Assembly (NCBI GenBank): GCA_934178475.1
Contig: CAKPQH010000001.1
Span: 68,128-132,127, forward strand
Source of the DNA: an uncultured Clostridia bacterium
GTDB taxonomy: Bacteria > Bacillota > Clostridia > TANB77 > CAG-508
Reading direction: 5' to 3'
Length of the DNA: 64,000 nucleotides
Positions 15,295-19,940 of the stretch are shown here, piece by piece. The notes beneath the pieces were generated by a model. The model ran no database searches. It saw nothing but the letters and a program-made list of their open reading frames with translations, and was not told the DNA's origin. Every line of letters begins with the position of its first letter. Within the stretch, counting starts at the first letter, position 1. Made by a program: the position numbers and the translations under genes.

Positions 15295-15555
15295 TTATAA
15301 ATAAAACAAGTTGAATTTATTATGCTTGTGCATAAAATATCCCCTTACTTTATCTAATTTTATTGTACCATCTGCTCTTTCTATCTCAACTGTTCCCTGA
15401 ACTTCTCCTATTATTGGTAAATAATCTTTCATTATTATTAGATTATATTTTTGACTTTTAATTCTTATAAATTTAACATCTGTATATTTTTGCACATCAC
15501 CATTAATATTCAAAAGTTGAAGTTCGATATTTGATTTATTATCATTTTCATTCAT
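15295..15555 (-). CDS. F-ATPase epsilon-like subunit, N-terminal beta-sandwich domain only
   Basis: 86 aa. [49 protein letters not shown] resembles the epsilon N-domain. The C-terminal helical hairpin is absent. Overlaps beta by 8 nt in the canonical position. Confidence 0.5.
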
Positions 15556-16927
15556 TTAAACTACCTCTATATAATAAATTACTTTCCTCTACATCATCAT
15601 ATTTTCCATCTAAAATTCCTTCAACATCATTTAATGTATCTTTAATTGCAACCAATTTTCCTTTTTTACCAGTATAATTTTCTGAAACAAACAATGGCTG
15701 TGTAAAATAGTTTCTTAATTTTCTTGAACGGTAAAAAATATTCTTATCTTCATCTGATAATTCATCAATTCCAAGTACAGCAATAATTTCTTCTAACTCT
15801 TCATATCTAGTTAAATATTCTAATGTTTTTTGAACTAATTTATAATGACGAGGACCTATTCTTTCTGGATCTATTGCTTTACTTGTTGATTTAAATGGAT
15901 TTATTGCAGGGTATAGACCTTTTTCTGCAACCTTTCTGTCCAATACTATTTGACCATCTAAGTGTGTCATAACTGCTTGTACAGCTTCATCATTAATATC
16001 ATCAGCCGGAATATATATAGCTTGAAATGAAGTTATTGAGCCTATTCCTGTTGAGTTAATTCTCTCTTCAATTTCATTTATATCTGATACCATTGTAGTA
16101 GGATATCCATTTTCAATAGGTATTCTTTTTAATTCAGTAGAAATCTCAGCTTTTGCTTGCACAAATCTATATATATTATCAATAAACAATAATACATCCT
16201 GATTTTTCTCATCTCTTAAGTATTCTGCTAATGTAAGACCACTATATACTGCTTTTGAACGAGAGCAAGAACCATCTCCCATTTGTCCAAATACCATTGA
16301 CATTTTATTTAATAAATCAGATTCTCTCATTTCTTGGAACAATTCCTGTCCTTCACGAGAACGCTCTCCTACTCCAACAAACACAGCATTAGAATTAAAT
16401 TTCTTATATATATTATTTATAAGCTCTTTTATTAAGACTGTTTTTCCAACTCCTGCTCCACCAAGAAGTCCCATCTTATATCCTTTTTGTAGTGGTGCAA
16501 AAAAGTCAATTACTTTTATACCAGTCCATAAAATATCCCCATTAATGTCTATATCTCTCATATACAATTTTTTATCATATACATTTCTCTTTTTAGGAGA
16601 TTTTATTGCTGTACCACCATCTATAGTATCTCCATAAGAATTAAACATTCTTCCTAATATCTTATCAGAATATTCTATTTGTAGTCCTCCATCTAATAGT
16701 TGTAAATCCAATCCTTTTTTCAAGCCATTAACACTATCAAAAGGAATTGTTAAAGCAATATTATCTTCTATTTCAACAATCTCGAACTTTCTTTCTTTAT
16801 CTCCATCTTTGCAAAATAATATATCATTTATCTTTAATTCATCTGATAACAACAATACCTTAACATTTAAATCTGATACACTTATAATTTTACCTACAAT
16901 ATTCTTTTTCATATTATATCCTTTCAC
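15548..16927 (-). CDS. F1-ATPase beta-like catalytic subunit
   Basis: 459 aa. Walker A GGAGVGKT, catalytic [14 protein letters not shown] and DELSDED (DELSEED) motifs are all present. Confidence 0.9.
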
Positions 16928-16936
16928 ATCAATTTA

Positions 16937-17725
16937 TCATTTTGTATTTAAATTAACTTTGTTAATATTATCTATTTGTTTCTTTAAAGCTTTATTATTT
17001 TTTTCTTTTCTTTCTTCTCTTTGTTTTTCTTCTTCAATTTCATCTATCTTTTTTAAAGATTCCTTTGTTATCATTTGTCTCATAATATTTTCAGATGCAT
17101 AACTATTTTCGACAGCTACTTTTATTTCATAATTCAAATATAACGCAATTATATTTAATAATATACTATTGATATTTCCTTCAACTGCAAAATCTTCATT
17201 ATAAGAATTATTTTTAACTTTACTTTTCTCAAGTGGTAATATTTTTCTTTTTACTAATTCAATTCTACTAATATTATAATAATGATTATAAATTAAATTA
17301 ACCTCTGAATATTTTTTATCTTTAACACAATTAAACATTATATTACTTATTTTACCAGCACTATTATAATAATCATCTTTAGACAACGACAAAATAACAT
17401 TACTATATTCCTGTCCAGAAATTATCTTTTTTCCAATTATTATTTTATCATTATCAACATCTTCCTTTAATTTAGTATGAACATTTGTATTAAAGTTTCC
17501 ACAAAATCCTAAATCATTTGCTATATAAATATTTAAAGCCTTTCCTTTTTTATTCATTTTTATCATTTTCTTATCAAGTATCAGATTTTGGTTATTCAAT
17601 ATATTATCAATAAAATCTCTTACTGCTTCTTCGTATTCAAAAAATTCCTCTGCTCTTCTTTTTGAAGAATCAACCCTTAATAGAGAATGGAAATTCATTA
17701 CTTTAACTATGCTTTTAATTTTCAT
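16937..17725 (-). CDS. F1-ATPase gamma-like subunit (divergent, 262 aa)
   Basis: Sits between the alpha and beta genes. N-terminal MKIKSIVKVMNFHSLLRVDSSKRRAEE mirrors the gamma N-terminal helix; C-terminus is helical and charged. Confidence 0.5.
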   Translation of the reverse strand: MKIKSIVKVMNFHSLLRVDSSKRRAEEFFEYEEAVRDFIDNILNNQNLILDKKMIKMNKKGKALNIYIANDLGFCGNFNTNVHTKLKEDVDNDKIIIGKKIISGQEYSNVILSLSKDDYYNSAGKISNIMFNCVKDKKYSEVNLIYNHYYNISRIELVKRKILPLEKSKVKNNSYNEDFAVEGNINSILLNIIALYLNYEIKVAVENSYASENIMRQMITKESLKKIDEIEEEKQREERKEKNNKALKKQIDNINKVNLNTK

Positions 17726-17768
17726 ATTATCCTCTGTTAGCTAAAGCTAACTTCTCCCTTCATAAATT

Positions 17769-19109
17769 TTATTTTGTTTTATTATCAAAATATTCAAACC
17801 TATCAATTATATCTTGCTCAGAAAATGGTTCAAATTTATTCTGTCTTAAAAGCATTTCTATTTTCTTTCCTTCTTTCATCTTGTTTCTAAGTTCCTCACT
17901 CATTTCATCCATATTTGCAAGTTCATAAACTTCCTTTGTTTCAAGATAATTTAAAAGTTTCAATCTTACTTTAGCTCCAAGTGCCTTTATATTATCCTTT
18001 TGAACAGCACCTCCTAATCTTGATACTGAAACACCATAATCAATTGCAGGTTTTTGACCTTTAGCAAACTGTTTACTTGAAAGTACTATCTGTCCATCTG
18101 TTATTGATATTATATTTGTTGATATATAATCTGTTATATCTCCACCTTTTGTTTCAACAATTGGAAGAACTGTAATTGAACCTCCGTTTTTATGTTGGCA
18201 CCCTTTTTCAAGCAATCTTGAATGTGTATAAAAAATATCTGCTGGATATGCTTCTCTACCAGGTGTTTTATTTGATACTAAGCTTATCTCTCTATATATT
18301 TCAGCATGTCTTTTTAAATCATCTATGACTACTAAAACATCTTTTTGTTGTTGCATATACTCTTCAGCAATTGACATACCTACATATGGAATTAAACTTA
18401 ATACTGGAGTTTTATCATCATTTGTAGCAACAACCATCATAGTATATGATAAAGCATTCCTTTTTAGCAATTCATTATAAATTGTTTTAATTTCCTTTTT
18501 AGTTTTTCCTATAGCAATATAAATACATATCATATTACCTTTATTTTCTTTTACTCTACCTTGATTTACTATAGCATCTAATGCAATTTGTGTCTTTCCT
18601 GTTTTTTTATCACCAATTATTAATTGTCTTTGTCCTTTTCCAATAGGATAAATCAAATCAATTCCTGCTATTCCTGTCAAAAGTGGTCTACATACTTGCG
18701 TTCTTTCAATAATTGGAACATTTGGTTTTTCTATATCTATATATTTAAACTTTTCAAAAGACTTTCCTGATAACTGATCTACACCAAAAATATCAGTTAT
18801 TCTTCCTAAAGCTTCTTCTGCAAATATAGCTCTAAATAATTCACCAGTAGCATTAGCAATATCACCTATTTCAATAGGAGCATACTCTTTAACAATGGCA
18901 ACACTTACTGAATTTTGATATATAGCATTTACATACCCCATACCTTTTTCCATTATAACTATTTTTTCAAAATACATTACATTTTCAAGTCCTGTTACTT
19001 CAACTATATAATCTTTTATCTTAACTATCTTTCCAGAATCAAATATATTCTTTTTCTCTTTTATCTTATTAACCTTTTCATTAACTAAATTAGTTATATG
19101 TGTTTCCAT
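17769..19109 (-). CDS. F1-ATPase alpha-like subunit (446 aa, C-terminal domain shortened)
   Basis: P-loop GDKKTGKT preceded by LLTGIAGIDLIYPIGKGQRQLIIG. Also REAYPADIFYTHSRLLEKG and ISITDGQIVL...VSVSRLG (arginine-finger region). Confidence 0.9.
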   Translation of the reverse strand: METHITNLVNEKVNKIKEKKNIFDSGKIVKIKDYIVEVTGLENVMYFEKIVIMEKGMGYVNAIYQNSVSVAIVKEYAPIEIGDIANATGELFRAIFAEEALGRITDIFGVDQLSGKSFEKFKYIDIEKPNVPIIERTQVCRPLLTGIAGIDLIYPIGKGQRQLIIGDKKTGKTQIALDAIVNQGRVKENKGNMICIYIAIGKTKKEIKTIYNELLKRNALSYTMMVVATNDDKTPVLSLIPYVGMSIAEEYMQQQKDVLVVIDDLKRHAEIYREISLVSNKTPGREAYPADIFYTHSRLLEKGCQHKNGGSITVLPIVETKGGDITDYISTNIISITDGQIVLSSKQFAKGQKPAIDYGVSVSRLGGAVQKDNIKALGAKVRLKLLNYLETKEVYELANMDEMSEELRNKMKEGKKIEMLLRQNKFEPFSEQDIIDRFEYFDNKTK

Positions 19110-19142
19110 ACTTTTTTCATCCTTCCTATTATTAGTTATATA

Positions 19143-19940
19143 TTAAATGCTATAATCATAAATTTTATTTCTATACTTGATAATCATACCTTCTGACATA
19201 TTGCTATATGTTTTTAAAATAATATTTTTATCAAATTTGCTATAATTTTTGTCAATAACATTCATATAAATATATATATATGGATCTATTTCTTCCATTC
19301 TTTCATCGATGAATTTTAATAATTCATTTATTCCAAATTCCTTATTCTCTTTTATCAATTTATCCCATTTTAAAATTTTTTTATCAGTTGCAGTCAAAAC
19401 TTCCTGTATAACATCTTGTTGTTCTTGCTTATTTAATGTTAAACATTGGTATATAGCCTCTTCATTAAATTTTCCTTTAATTTTACTTAAAGCATTATAT
19501 TCTTTTTCTTCTTTTTCGTTTTTATGTTCTTTGACAAATTTTTTAATCAAATCTTCATTATCTACTGTAAATATTCTTTTTAATTCTTTATAGTTCTTGA
19601 AGAAGTCTTCTTCTCTAAACTTAGGAGTTTTTAGTTCATATTGTACTTCAATAAAATCATTGCCATCATCATTTTCTTTTTTTCTTTCTGGCAATTTGAA
19701 ATCATCATCTTTTTTTCCAATAAGATTTTTATTTTCTTGTTTCATTTCTTCGATTTCAGATTTTAGATTATTCAATTCTGTTCTTTTTTCTTCAATTATA
19801 TAATCATAATCCTGCATTTTGTTTACAAAATATCTCTTAGCATTATCATCCATCCTTTTCAATATATTCTTGAAAAGGAAGAAAACAAATACAAGCATTA
19901 TTATGATTAATATGACAGCAGCAACTATCAACTCTACCAT
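19143..19940 (-). CDS. F-ATPase b-like stalk subunit (N-terminal TM plus long charged coiled coil), possibly a b/delta-like fusion
   Basis: 265 aa. TM VAAVILIIIMLVFVFFLF then a K/E-rich helix. Sits between the c and alpha genes. Longer than a typical b; the C-terminal half could be a degenerate delta. Confidence 0.45.
   Translation of the reverse strand: MVELIVAAVILIIIMLVFVFFLFKNILKRMDDNAKRYFVNKMQDYDYIIEEKRTELNNLKSEIEEMKQENKNLIGKKDDDFKLPERKKENDDGNDFIEVQYELKTPKFREEDFFKNYKELKRIFTVDNEDLIKKFVKEHKNEKEEKEYNALSKIKGKFNEEAIYQCLTLNKQEQQDVIQEVLTATDKKILKWDKLIKENKEFGINELLKFIDERMEEIDPYIYIYMNVIDKNYSKFDKNIILKTYSNMSEGMIIKYRNKIYDYSI

What the first reader, a model, noticed from the sequence alone, without database searches (positions are those of the whole stretch)
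15295..19940. The F1 motor is catalytically intact while the stator components (a, delta) are missing
Beta keeps Walker A GGAGVGKT, the catalytic Glu context [11 protein letters not shown] and the DELSDED (DELSEED) lever. Alpha keeps GDKKTGKT and the VSVSRLG arginine-finger region. So ATP hydrolysis and gamma coupling are plausible.

There is no recognisable subunit a and no OSCP/delta gene between the b-like and alpha genes. Alpha is about 55 aa shorter than usual at the C-terminus. Gamma is short and divergent. The 265-aa b-like protein is longer than a normal b and may be a b-delta-like fusion.

This pattern matches an ATP-hydrolysing F1-like X0 ATPase rather than an ATP synthase.
Basis: partly seen in the sequence, partly recalled or inferred. 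Interest (0 to 1): 0.65.

Follow-up and report, generated by a model that had tools for sequence, protein, structure and literature searches.

The report
Rotary ATPase without an ion path
Many uncultured gut Firmicutes carry a conserved operon for an ATP-synthase-like rotary motor that has lost the parts needed to move ions and is encoded next to giant cell-surface proteins, so it most likely burns ATP to do mechanical work at the cell surface.

Summary
The catalytic motifs are all present, and the catalytic residues are conserved in 64-71 orthologs.

1. Delta is not missing. The C-terminal ~155 aa of the 265-aa "b-like" protein are predicted to fold like delta/OSCP, so the protein is a b-delta fusion. 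The alpha N-terminal segment that aligns with the delta-binding H1 region is retained.
2. A c subunit lies just outside the given coordinates (19970-20224). It lacks the helix-2 ion-binding carboxylate in 76 of 76 orthologs.

No subunit a was detected in the 64-kb window. A fast-evolving ~180-aa multi-helix membrane protein without a conserved Arg is part of the invariant core instead.

The seven-gene core is c, b-delta, alpha, gamma, beta, epsilon-like and this membrane protein. It recurs in 72-78 of 80 genome loci, mostly gut MAGs labelled Clostridia, Bacilli or Mollicutes. It usually sits beside membrane-anchored proteins of ~240, ~500, ~1,800 and >2,000 aa. All ten operon genes are under purifying selection.

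This is not a mycoplasma Type 2/3 "F1-like X0" ATPase: gene order and content differ and its models score below cut-off. It is a functional analogue.

My reading is an ATP-driven, non-ion-translocating rotary machine, probably coupled to the surface proteins. I found no published description.

The parts
27642..38591 (-). Giant 3649-aa protein with an N-terminal (28-46) and a C-terminal (3615-3633) hydrophobic segment. It is an accessory surface component. In the window it lies upstream of the operon. In many other loci a related giant ORF follows the p248 homolog.
   Evidence: ORF. Weak GLUG motif. Hydrophobic segments. tblastn matches next to the cluster in many of the 80 loci. No PDB relative.
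21809..27448 (-). Giant 1879-aa protein; public gene calls start at 27406, giving 1865 aa. It has one N-terminal hydrophobic segment and a conserved membrane-proximal domain, followed by variable repeats.
   Evidence: An N-terminal-domain profile finds it in 57 of 80 loci, directly upstream of the p518 homolog. dN/dS is 0.12-0.27 in unsaturated pairs.
20239..21795 (-). 518-aa protein with an N-terminal hydrophobic segment and a predicted ectodomain. Its membrane-proximal region is weakly similar to that of the 1879-aa protein.
   Evidence: A family profile hits 62 of 80 loci. 26% identity over ~200 aa to the 1879-aa protein, E=0.001 in a 7-sequence database. dN/dS 0.13-0.29.
19970..20224 (-). 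c-like subunit of 84 aa. It is a helical hairpin with the GxGxGxG motif and an RNPE loop, but has Ala at the position of the ion-binding carboxylate.
   Evidence: PF00137 34.1 bits, cut-off 24. In alignment with E. coli, I. tartaricus and PS3 c, the carboxylate column holds A, T, S, N or M in 76 of 76 orthologs. There is a clean boundary against canonical c in a 1.84-billion-protein library. dN/dS 0.06-0.10.
19143..19940 (-). b-delta fusion of 265 aa: a hydrophobic helix and coiled coil (2-71), a variable disordered linker (73-112), and a delta/OSCP-like domain (110-262).
   Evidence: AF2 model, pLDDT 76. Top Foldseek PDB hits are delta/OSCP or b-delta chains. OSCP PF00213 is sub-threshold in 3 of 32 members. 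A C-terminal motif match to E. coli delta. Present in 78 of 80 loci.
17769..19109 (-). Alpha subunit of 446 aa. The P-loop and Arg finger are intact and the N-terminal segment is retained. About 60 aa of the C-terminal domain are missing.
   Evidence: Scores fall below both atpA equivalog cut-offs (433<554, 406<484). dN/dS 0.04-0.09.
16937..17725 (-). Gamma subunit, 262 aa, divergent.
   Evidence: PF00231 101 bits. TIGR01146 69 bits, cut-off 194. dN/dS 0.04-0.09.
15548..16927 (-). Beta subunit. It is 459 aa from the GTG start; public gene calls use the ATG at 16912, giving 454 aa. It has the full catalytic residue set and a DELSDED loop.
   Evidence: TIGR01039 479.5 bits, cut-off 462.85; E. 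coli AtpD scores 875.
15295..15555 (-). Epsilon-like protein of 86 aa. It has the size of the epsilon N-terminal domain alone, with no C-terminal inhibitory helices. The assignment rests on gene position, size and a loose motif resemblance only.
   Evidence: No Pfam, NCBIfam or PDB match. Conserved in 72 of 80 loci directly after beta. dN/dS 0.08-0.18.
14732..15280 (-). 182-aa polytopic membrane protein with 4-5 predicted helices. It belongs to the invariant core and is the candidate membrane stator. No intramembrane Arg is conserved.
   Evidence: No Pfam or NCBIfam hit. Present in 72 of 80 loci directly after the epsilon-like gene. Alignments. The AF2 model has low confidence (pLDDT 57) and gives no significant fold match. 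dN/dS 0.14-0.18.
13989..14735 (-). 248-aa protein with an N-terminal hydrophobic segment and a conserved ~220-aa predicted ectodomain. It is the last gene of the operon.
   Evidence: A family profile hits 59 of 80 loci. It overlaps the preceding gene by 4 nt. dN/dS 0.12-0.30.
13953..13975 (-). Terminator-like hairpin plus T-run, 14 nt after the stop of the 248-aa gene. No such site lies on this strand between 27448 and 13989.

Best explanation
This operon encodes a distinct F-type-derived rotary ATPase.

Proposed composition:
- A catalytically competent alpha3beta3 head.
- A gamma/epsilon-like central stalk.
- A ring of c subunits that cannot bind H+ or Na+.
- A single b-delta fusion as the peripheral stalk.
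- A ~180-aa polytopic membrane protein in the place of subunit a.

There is no subunit a and no carboxylate on the ring, so there is no ion path. Ion flow cannot drive the enzyme to make ATP, and the enzyme cannot pump ions. It can only hydrolyse ATP and turn (or strain) the gamma/epsilon/c-ring rotor against the b-delta/membrane-protein stator.

I infer that the output is mechanical and is passed across the membrane to the co-transcribed, membrane-anchored surface proteins of 248, 518, 1879 and 3649 aa. The purpose could be adhesion, surface movement, or resetting and remodelling of these proteins. This would be analogous to the way mycoplasma Type 2 and Type 3 F1-like ATPases are thought to power gliding legs and the MIB-MIP system.

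Shown computationally: the subunit inventory, intact catalytic residues, universal loss of the c carboxylate, no detectable subunit a, a delta-like fold fused to b, conserved synteny, operon structure and purifying selection.

Inferred: assembly into one complex, rotation, and coupling to the surface proteins. My confidence that this is a non-ion-translocating, ATP-consuming F-type derivative is about 0.8. My confidence in mechanical coupling to the giant proteins is about 0.45. The overall figure of 0.6 is for the statement as a whole.
For: Subunit inventory and catalytic integrity:
- Catalytic residues are conserved in 64-71 orthologs.

Loss of the ion path:
- The c carboxylate is absent in 76 of 76 orthologs, while the RNPE loop that faces gamma/epsilon is conserved.
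- In a 1.84-billion-protein library, every family-like c hit lacks the carboxylate and every more distant single-hairpin hit has E or D.
- No PF00119 match exists in the cluster or the window, with a positive control.
- The membrane protein has no conserved Arg.

Peripheral stalk:
- The alpha N-terminal segment is retained.

Hydrolysis direction: the epsilon-like protein is only ~85 aa. If it is epsilon, it lacks the C-terminal domain that inhibits hydrolysis in canonical enzymes.

Conservation and expression:
- The seven-gene core is in 72-78 of 80 loci. The accessory single-pass proteins are in 57-62 loci in fixed order.
- Intergenic gaps run from -8 to 43 nt. Purine-rich Shine-Dalgarno-like motifs precede the starts, and one terminator-like site follows the last gene.
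- dN/dS is 0.04-0.30 for all ten genes.

Precedent: F1-like ATPases are linked to gliding and to MIB-MIP function in mycoplasmas (PMC12994834; PMC11864180).
Against: - No experiment exists, and no complex model could be computed.
- Delta homology rests on a predicted fold with modest Foldseek E-values (best 4.4e-3). Sequence signals are sub-threshold.
- The epsilon-like assignment has no statistical support.
- The N-terminal hydrophobic helices of the accessory proteins are no more conserved than their ectodomains. Nothing therefore points to a specific intramembrane contact with the ring.
- About 12 loci have the core without the giant proteins within 10 kb, so the coupling partner is not universal.
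- A 40-residue disordered linker in the stalk is an odd feature for a torque-resisting stator.
- I could not test whether the genome also carries a genuine F- or V-type ATPase.
Confidence: 0.6

Rival explanations
1. It is the organism's housekeeping ion-translocating F-ATPase with a very divergent Fo. On this view the ~180-aa membrane protein is a degenerate subunit a, and the c ring binds ions by an unconventional site.
For: - Gene order c-b-alpha-gamma-beta-epsilon is canonical, and beta just passes the atpD equivalog cut-off.
- Public annotation names the c subunit 'F-type H+-transporting ATPase subunit c'.
- No second ATPase was seen in the 64-kb window.
- The membrane protein has about the right number of helices.
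Against: - No acidic residue occupies the ion-binding column in any of 76 orthologs; one ortholog (L038) has an Asp one position earlier. The surrounding helix is purely hydrophobic.
- From established knowledge, replacing E. coli cAsp61 abolishes proton translocation.
- No conserved Arg or other charged intramembrane residue exists in the membrane protein.
- There is no Pfam, NCBIfam or profile similarity to subunit a.
- Alpha and beta score about half of what E. coli AtpA/AtpD score on the equivalog models.
Confidence: 0.07
2. It is a member (ortholog) of the mycoplasma Type 2 or Type 3 'F1-like X0' ATPase family.
For: - Some hosts are MAGs labelled Mollicutes, Mycoplasmatota or Tenericutes.
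- There is no subunit a, and the cluster is associated with large surface proteins, as in M. mobile gliding and MIB-MIP.
- A b-delta fusion has been proposed as the origin of GliD/MMOB1620 (PMC11864180).
Against: - NCBIfam Type 2/3 models fall below cut-off: beta 403<570 and 387<850; alpha 312<520 and 382<600. They score no better than for E. coli AtpD/AtpA (427 and 495; 312 and 412).
- The M. mobile G1 chains score lower than canonical F1 chains (318 vs 395 bits for beta; 278 vs 319 for alpha).
- Gene order and content differ. A c subunit and a membrane-anchored stalk are present, and no 12-TM protein is present.
- The alpha N-terminal segment is kept, whereas the H1 helix is absent in Type 2/3.
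Confidence: 0.05
3. It is an export or assembly ATPase. The F1-like head would energise secretion, unfolding or insertion of the giant proteins, in the manner of the FliH/FliI/FliJ complex of type III secretion, rather than working as a motor afterwards.
For: - The genes are tightly co-transcribed with very large exported proteins.
- From established knowledge, FliI/FliJ/FliH are homologs of alpha-beta, gamma and b-delta. Beta and alpha also score 200-230 and 160-166 bits on FliI/SctN models.
Against: - Both an alpha and a beta subunit are present, plus gamma, a c ring and a peripheral stalk. That is a complete rotary architecture, not a homohexameric export ATPase.
- No export-gate homologs are present in the cluster.
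- The giant proteins have ordinary N-terminal hydrophobic signal-anchor segments compatible with Sec.
- About 12 loci keep the core without giant proteins nearby.
Confidence: 0.1
4. It is a decaying remnant of an atp operon with no function.
For: Subunit a and the c carboxylate are lost, alpha is truncated, and gamma and epsilon are divergent.
Against: - dN/dS is 0.04-0.30 for all ten genes.
- c is 51-88% identical and alpha 56-87% identical across MAGs labelled as different classes.
- Catalytic residues are invariant.
- ORFs are intact, with ribosome-binding sites.
Confidence: 0.01

Closest known systems
Canonical bacterial F1Fo ATP synthase (atpIBEFHAGDC; e.g. E. coli, Bacillus PS3, Fusobacterium nucleatum 6q45)
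   Same: - Alpha, beta, gamma and c are homologous, and the gene order c-b-(delta)-alpha-gamma-beta-epsilon is the same.
- Catalytic residues, the DELSEED-type loop, the c GxGxGxG motif, the RQP-type loop, the alpha N-terminal segment and a delta-like domain are all kept.
   Different: - There is no subunit a and no atpI.
- c lacks the ion-binding Glu/Asp.
- b and delta are fused, with a short helix and a disordered linker.
- Alpha lacks about 60 C-terminal residues.
- The epsilon-like protein lacks a C-terminal domain.
- An extra polytopic membrane protein and single-pass ectodomain proteins are in the operon.
- Alpha and beta score about half of the canonical values on the equivalog models.
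Mycoplasma Type 3 'F1-like X0' ATPase (MSC_0618/0619; MMCAP2_0575-0581) and Type 2 G1-ATPase of the Mycoplasma mobile gliding motor
   Same: - Both are F1-derived ATPases without an a subunit.
- Both are genetically linked to large surface proteins and are proposed to transmit force across the membrane.
- A b+delta-derived subunit has been proposed for Type 2 (PMC12994834, PMC11864180, PMC3369863).
   Different: - Type 2/3 have no c and no membrane-anchored stalk.
- They have a 12-TM protein and a signal-peptide + 2-TM protein.
- Their gene order is different.
- Their alpha lacks the H1 helix.
- The literature I read describes them as specific to mycoplasmas.
- The present family fails their NCBIfam cut-offs and shows no extra affinity to them.
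Mycobacterial AtpFH (b-delta fusion) peripheral stalk
   Same: A b-type membrane helix is fused to a delta domain in one polypeptide. Mycobacterium smegmatis chain d appears among the Foldseek matches.
   Different: Mycobacteria also keep a separate b, subunit a and a carboxylate-bearing c ring. Their fusion is ~445 aa with a long rigid helix; this one is 265 aa with a disordered linker.
N-ATPase (alternate F1Fo; AtpQ/AtpR-containing operons, PMC2881411)
   Same: Both are second, divergent F-type operon types.
   Different: The N-ATPase is a complete ion-translocating enzyme with an a subunit and a Na+-binding c. Its NCBIfam models score 418 (beta) and 353 (alpha) against cut-offs of about 750.
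c-ring hairpins that lack the carboxylate in hybrid rings (Acetobacterium woodii F-type c1; duplicated V/A-type c subunits). From my own knowledge, not tested here.
   Same: Loss of the ion-binding carboxylate from a c-type hairpin has precedent.
   Different: In those rings only some hairpins lose the site, and ion transport persists. Here the only c gene in the operon lacks it, in every ortholog.

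Membership tests
Canonical F1Fo ATP synthase | Alpha and beta subunits with catalytic P-loop, catalytic Glu and Arg finger | tested here: met
   PF00006 E=1e-67 to 1e-74. Residues are conserved in 64-71 orthologs. Beta passes the TIGR01039 cut-off only narrowly (479.5 vs 462.85). Alpha fails both atpA cut-offs.
Canonical F1Fo ATP synthase | c subunit with a membrane-embedded Glu/Asp that carries the ion | tested here: not met
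   The column aligned to E. coli D61, I. tartaricus E65 and the PS3 Glu holds A, T, S, N or M in 76 of 76 orthologs. In database representatives of the family it holds S, A, T, V, M, I, F or G.
Canonical F1Fo ATP synthase | Subunit a (PF00119) with a conserved intramembrane Arg | tested here: not met
   No PF00119 or NCBIfam hit in the cluster or in any window ORF of 90 aa or more. The E. coli control scores 191 bits. The only polytopic protein has no conserved Arg. Its fold comparison was inconclusive because the model is poor. The rest of the genome could not be searched.
Canonical F1Fo ATP synthase | Peripheral stalk: b (membrane helix plus long helix) and delta/OSCP | tested here: met
   Met in fused form. 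The model shows a hydrophobic helix plus helix 2-71 and a delta-like domain 110-262. The top Foldseek hits are delta/OSCP chains. Sequence-level support is only sub-threshold.
Canonical F1Fo ATP synthase | Epsilon subunit (PF02823 N-terminal beta-sandwich) | tested here: inconclusive
   An 86-aa gene sits in the epsilon position and is conserved in 72 loci. It gives no Pfam, PDB or hhalign signal.
Mycoplasma Type 3 F1-like X0 (MSC_0618/0619 family) | [quoted passage not shown] | tested here: not met
   NF045934 scores 402.9 against a cut-off of 570. NF045936 scores 311.9 against 520. E. coli AtpD and AtpA score 427 and 312 on the same models.
Mycoplasma Type 3 F1-like X0 (MSC_0618/0619 family) | Seven-gene cluster: 12-TM protein, small cytosolic protein, gamma, epsilon, SP+2TM protein, alpha, beta; no c and no b | tested here: not met
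   The order here is c, b-delta, alpha, gamma, beta, epsilon-like, ~180-aa membrane protein. There is no 12-TM protein. The reference architecture comes from PMC12994834.
Mycoplasma Type 2/3 F1-like ATPases | Alpha lacks the N-terminal H1 helix that binds the peripheral stalk | tested here: not met
   Alpha residues 1-25 align with E. coli alpha from residue 4, and the segment is conserved in the family. References.
Mycoplasma Type 2/3 F1-like ATPases | Occurs as an extra copy beside a genuine Type 1 F1Fo operon in the same genome | not testable with these tools
   Only the 64-kb window and +/-10 kb around homologs can be read.
Mycoplasma Type 2 G1-ATPase (gliding motor) | MMOB1660/1670-family subunits; beta with an N-terminal dimerisation extension | tested here: not met
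   NF045858 scores 387 against a cut-off of 850. NF045863 scores 382 against 600. Beta is 454-459 aa with no N-terminal extension.
N-ATPase | alt_F1F0 alpha, beta, gamma and c models at cut-off | tested here: not met
   TIGR03305 scores 418 against 752. TIGR03324 scores 353 against 750. TIGR03323 scores 35 against 282.

The most novel reading that the evidence does not exclude
This would be a previously unrecognised class of rotary machine. An F1 head turns a non-conducting c ring whose only job is to pass torque through the membrane to giant cell-surface proteins. That would give wall-bearing gut Firmicutes an ATP-powered adhesion or motility engine. It would also be the evolutionary bridge, still carrying a c ring and a b-delta stalk, between genuine F1Fo and the mycoplasma Type 2/3 F1-like X0 motors.
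Probability: 0.3. Interest if true: 0.92.

Novelty: new variant of a known kind. Interest (0 to 1): 0.82.

Why it matters
- Rotary ATPases are defined by coupling ATP turnover to ion flow. Here the ion-binding site of the c subunit and the a subunit are both gone, in every member of a family that is widespread and under purifying selection. That would show a c ring can be kept purely as a mechanical element.
- F1-like, non-bioenergetic motors would no longer be a mycoplasma peculiarity. They would extend to a broad set of abundant, mostly uncultured gut bacteria.
- The family offers a plausible intermediate for how those motors arose.
- It flags systematic mis-annotation. Some public records name the c subunit 'F-type H+-transporting ATPase' or 'F0F1 ATP synthase subunit C', which would distort metabolic reconstructions of these genomes.
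- One carrier appears to be a cultured isolate, Lachnospiraceae bacterium AM93-12TA (L046). That makes the question directly testable.

Tried and rejected
- Subunit a hidden in the cluster: rejected. The 182-, 248- and 518-aa proteins show nothing against E. coli a by hhalign, Pfam or NCBIfam. The AF2 model of the 182-aa protein was too poor (pLDDT 57) for the fold search to mean anything.
- Sequence-level proof of delta homology: only weak signals.
  - A full-length profile and a domain-only profile against PDB sequences found no delta.
  - hhalign against E. coli delta matched only the C-terminal motif, E=0.018-0.11.
  - Pfam OSCP was sub-threshold in 3 of 32 members.
- Epsilon identity: a profile against the PDB and a permissive Pfam scan found nothing.
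- Giant proteins: no PDB sequence relatives. Only faint fn3 and GLUG hits.
- Multi-hairpin hits in the c-subunit library search looked like possible fused rings, which could have related to the mycoplasma 12-TM subunit. They turned out to be tandem canonical F/V-type c repeats.
- Conserved N-terminal membrane helices in the accessory proteins, as a hint of ring contact: not found.
The models therefore used shallower alignments.
- Seven literature searches found no description of this cluster.

Full report
**What is at the coordinates**

The finding covers five tightly packed minus-strand genes:
- 19143-19940, a 265-aa protein.
- 17769-19109, alpha, 446 aa.
- 16937-17725, gamma, 262 aa.
- 15548-16927, beta, 459 aa from the GTG start or 454 aa from the ATG that public gene calls use.
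- 15295-15555, an 86-aa protein.

Pfam places beta and alpha in PF00006 (E=1.8e-67 and 8.3e-74) and gamma in PF00231 (E=1.2e-28).

I aligned the family with E. coli AtpD and AtpA taken from NC_000913. In beta, the Walker A Lys/Thr and Walker B Asp are invariant in 71 orthologs, and the catalytic Glu-Arg pair is kept in 68 of 71. In alpha, the P-loop and Arg finger are invariant in 64 orthologs. The DELSEED-type loop stays acidic throughout.

Alpha lacks about 60 residues of the C-terminal helical domain. It keeps the ~25-residue N-terminal segment.

Thirty nucleotides upstream of the 265-aa gene lies an 84-aa c subunit at 19970-20224. It scores 34 bits on PF00137, whose cut-off is 24.

I aligned it with E. 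coli, Ilyobacter tartaricus and Bacillus PS3 c. The position of the ion-binding Asp/Glu is Ala in the window. It is A, T, S, N or M in all 76 orthologs recovered from genomes. The GxGxGxG helix and the RNPE loop facing gamma/epsilon are strongly conserved.

A phmmer search of 1.84 billion representative proteins gave 126 hits. All the family-like hits lack the carboxylate. Every more distant single-hairpin hit has E or D, and there are no intermediates.

Delta is not missing. An AlphaFold2 model of the 265-aa protein has mean pLDDT 76, and above 90 for much of the C-terminal domain. It shows one long helix (2-71, membrane segment plus coiled coil), a disordered and variable linker (73-112), and a helical bundle with a small beta sheet (110-262). 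In a Foldseek search of the PDB, the top 24 matches are delta/OSCP or mycobacterial b-delta chains, and more follow lower in the list. The best are 9o19_W (E=4.4e-3, probability 0.99), 7p2y_d, 6oqr_W and bovine OSCP, with alignments covering roughly 140-180 columns of the ~175-190-residue targets.

Sequence evidence for delta is only sub-threshold. OSCP appears in 3 of 32 members, best E=0.043. A C-terminal motif aligns with E. coli delta. Profile searches of PDB sequences found nothing.

**Subunit a**

No ORF of 90 aa or more in the 64-kb window matches PF00119. E. coli a and delta, used as controls, score 191 and 164 bits.

The only polytopic membrane protein is the 182-aa product of 14732-15280, directly after the 86-aa gene. 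It is positionally conserved and recognisable by a family profile in 72 of 80 loci. It evolves fast and has no conserved intramembrane Arg or other charged residue. It shows no similarity to subunit a by Pfam, NCBIfam or hhalign. Its AF2 model is poor (pLDDT 57), so the fold search says nothing. I treat it as a replacement membrane stator. Descent from subunit a can be neither shown nor excluded.

**The 86-aa protein**

It sits where epsilon sits and has the size of the epsilon N-terminal domain. It carries a loosely similar motif: [20 protein letters not shown] against [21 protein letters not shown] in E. coli epsilon. It gives no Pfam, PDB or hhalign signal. If it is epsilon, it lacks the C-terminal helices that inhibit ATP hydrolysis in canonical enzymes.

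**Conservation and context**

Alpha has hundreds of close relatives of ~445 aa in public data. Only a few carry source names, all of them 'F-type H+-transporting ATPase subunit alpha'.

Eighty genome loci were recovered. They are mostly gut or digester MAGs. Labels include:
- uncultured Clostridia or Clostridium (CAG:354, CAG:914, CAG:302);
- Candidatus Merdicola (Clostridia incertae sedis in NCBI taxonomy) and Candidatus Coprovivens (Bacilli incertae sedis);
- Bacilli, Mollicutes, Mycoplasmatota or Tenericutes;
- what appears to be one cultured isolate, Lachnospiraceae bacterium AM93-12TA (L046).

The invariant core is c, b-delta, alpha, gamma, beta, epsilon-like and the ~180-aa membrane protein, present in 72-78 loci. 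One subclade has the order alpha-beta-epsilon-membrane protein-gamma.

In 57-62 loci the core is flanked in fixed order. A ~1,800-aa and a ~500-aa protein lie upstream, and a ~240-aa protein lies downstream. In many of these loci a protein of more than 2,000 aa follows. Each of the ~1,800-, ~500- and ~240-aa proteins has a single N-terminal hydrophobic segment. In the window the 3649-aa homolog lies upstream and has hydrophobic segments at both ends. The membrane-proximal regions of the 1879- and 518-aa proteins are weakly similar.

About 12 loci carry the core with other, unrelated small proteins.

The window genes form an operon:
- Gaps between genes run from -8 to 43 nt.
- Purine-rich Shine-Dalgarno-like motifs precede the starts.
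- There is no terminator-like site on the strand until a hairpin plus T-run 14 nt after the last gene.

Pairwise dN/dS in unsaturated comparisons:

| Gene | dN/dS |
|---|---|
| alpha, beta, gamma, c | 0.04-0.10 |
| epsilon-like | 0.08-0.18 |
| b-delta | 0.09-0.26 |
| membrane protein | 0.14-0.18 |
| ectodomain proteins | 0.12-0.30 |

All ten are therefore functional genes.

The rest of the window is ordinary chromosome of a fermentative, wall-bearing Firmicute. It includes an OLE RNA, L13/S9, HU, a MurJ-like flippase, a PBP5-type carboxypeptidase, HydABC-type hydrogenase subunits, rpoD and dnaG.

**Relation to known families**

On NCBIfam, beta only just passes the atpD equivalog (479.5 vs 462.85). 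Alpha fails both atpA models (433<554, 406<484). E. coli AtpD and AtpA score 875 and 869 on the same models. The head is thus about as divergent from genuine F1 as the mycoplasma paralogs are.

It shows no affinity to those paralogs, however:

| Model | Window | Cut-off | E. coli |
|---|---|---|---|
| Type 3 beta | 403 | 570 | 427 |
| Type 3 alpha | 312 | 520 | 312 |
| Type 2 beta | 387 | 850 | 495 |
| Type 2 alpha | 382 | 600 | 412 |

Against PDB sequences, the best matches are canonical bacterial F1: F. nucleatum 6q45, PS3 and Caldalkalibacillus, at about 380-395 bits for beta and 311-319 for alpha. The M. mobile G1-ATPase scores 318 and 278. The N-ATPase models also fail.

The published Type 2/3 clusters run 12-TM protein, small cytosolic protein, gamma, epsilon, SP+2TM protein, alpha, beta. 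They have no c or b, and their alpha lacks the N-terminal helix. They are described as specific to mycoplasmas (PMC3369863, PMC12994834, PMC11864180).

The present family fails those defining features, so it is not a member. It shares the functional logic: an F1-type head without an ion path, next to large surface proteins. The M. mobile literature suggests that GliD arose from a b+delta fusion. That makes the membrane-anchored b-delta fusion here an attractive intermediate, though this remains untested.

**Mechanism**

Shown:
- an intact catalytic head;
- a gamma and a c subunit that keeps its gamma/epsilon-facing loop;
- a delta-like cap fused to a membrane helix, with the alpha N-terminal segment retained;
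- no ion-binding site on c and no subunit a.

Established knowledge of F-type enzymes says that ion translocation needs the c carboxylate and the Arg of subunit a. This complex therefore cannot convert an ion gradient into ATP or pump ions.

Inferred:
- ATP hydrolysis rotates or strains the gamma/epsilon/c-ring unit against b-delta plus the membrane protein.
- A freely spinning hydrophobic ring would be a futile ATPase, so the ring or the stator must bear a load.
- The obvious candidates for that load are the co-transcribed single-pass proteins with large ectodomains.

How force would be passed is unknown. Their membrane helices are not specially conserved.

**Novelty**

Seven full-text searches found no description of such a cluster outside mycoplasmas. 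Some public records name the c subunit as an ordinary H+-transporting ATP synthase subunit.

I rate this a new variant of a known kind: a rotary ATPase re-purposed for non-bioenergetic work. It has one feature without precedent that I know of, a ring built only of carboxylate-less c subunits.

**Limits**

- I could not search the rest of any carrier genome for a second rotary ATPase.
- I could not build a proper phylogeny that includes Type 2/3 sequences.
- I could not model the complex.

Noticed in passing
window 1243-1839 (-): A full-length OLE (ornate large extremophilic) RNA, 319 bits against a gathering score of 50. It lies in what seems to be a gut-associated, low-GC (about 26%) fermentative Firmicute.
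   Followed up: no
window 38572-39507 (-): A response-regulator receiver domain fused to a GGDEF diguanylate cyclase. Its gene overlaps the start of the 3649-aa giant gene by 20 nt, so it may provide c-di-GMP control of the surface-protein/ATPase operon. It was not found next to the cluster in the other loci.
   Followed up: partly
window 39522-44193 (-): Two more surface proteins lie upstream on the same strand. One is 1206 aa with DUF11 repeats, a signal peptide and a C-terminal hydrophobic anchor. The other is 314 aa with a Big_7 Ig-like domain. Neither is conserved with the cluster elsewhere.
   Followed up: partly
window 11816-13870 (-); L030, L031, L033, L034, L037, L038, L041, L043-L045, L063 (alpha genes): A 684-aa protein with no predicted membrane segment and an extremely acidic, repetitive C-terminal tail follows the operon in the window. 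In one subclade of other genomes, alpha itself carries a 120-650-aa C-terminal extension; in the one I inspected (L037) it is acidic, low-complexity and repetitive, giving an alpha of 1090 aa. The two may be related features. This is unexplained.
   Followed up: partly
L022 12139-14184; L054 12184-13905: Some orthologs have a beta subunit with a ~120-230-aa C-terminal extension (573 and 681 aa). The extensions were not characterised.
   Followed up: no
L071 15070-18905; L064 18907-21028: In the loci that have the ATPase core but no giant proteins, arrays of ~210-260-aa paralogs lie a few kb downstream. Their N-terminal signal-anchor ends in G-A-T-F-A-Y-F-S-A. From memory, this resembles SipW-dependent (TasA/camelysin-type) signal peptides. 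They have no Pfam hit.
   Followed up: partly
L029 (MSHD01000015.1, high-GC 'Lachnospiraceae bacterium Zagget2') 9200-19016: A high-GC version of the cluster. The epsilon-like ORF is 141 aa and the b-delta ORF as called is 141 aa, holding only the delta-like part. No c ORF was detected. Three ~750-aa paralogs carry the N-terminal domain of the 1879-aa protein. The upstream ORFs look like Mrp/complex-I antiporter subunits (my reading of the translations, not tested). Start sites and frames may be mis-called.
   Followed up: partly
proteins P0277-P0326 from the representative library: Proteins made of 3 to 14 tandem canonical F- or V-type c-subunit hairpins, up to 1139 aa. They surfaced as hits to the c query. 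All match ordinary subunit c/K models. They may be natural fusions or gene-call artefacts.
   Followed up: partly
window 11039-11632 (-): A ParE toxin / Phd-YefM antitoxin pair lies between the operon region and the ribosomal protein genes.
   Followed up: no
window 48404-52541 (-): Three genes with the domain content of HydA, HydB and HydC of an electron-bifurcating [FeFe] hydrogenase. This is consistent with a strictly fermentative lifestyle.
   Followed up: no
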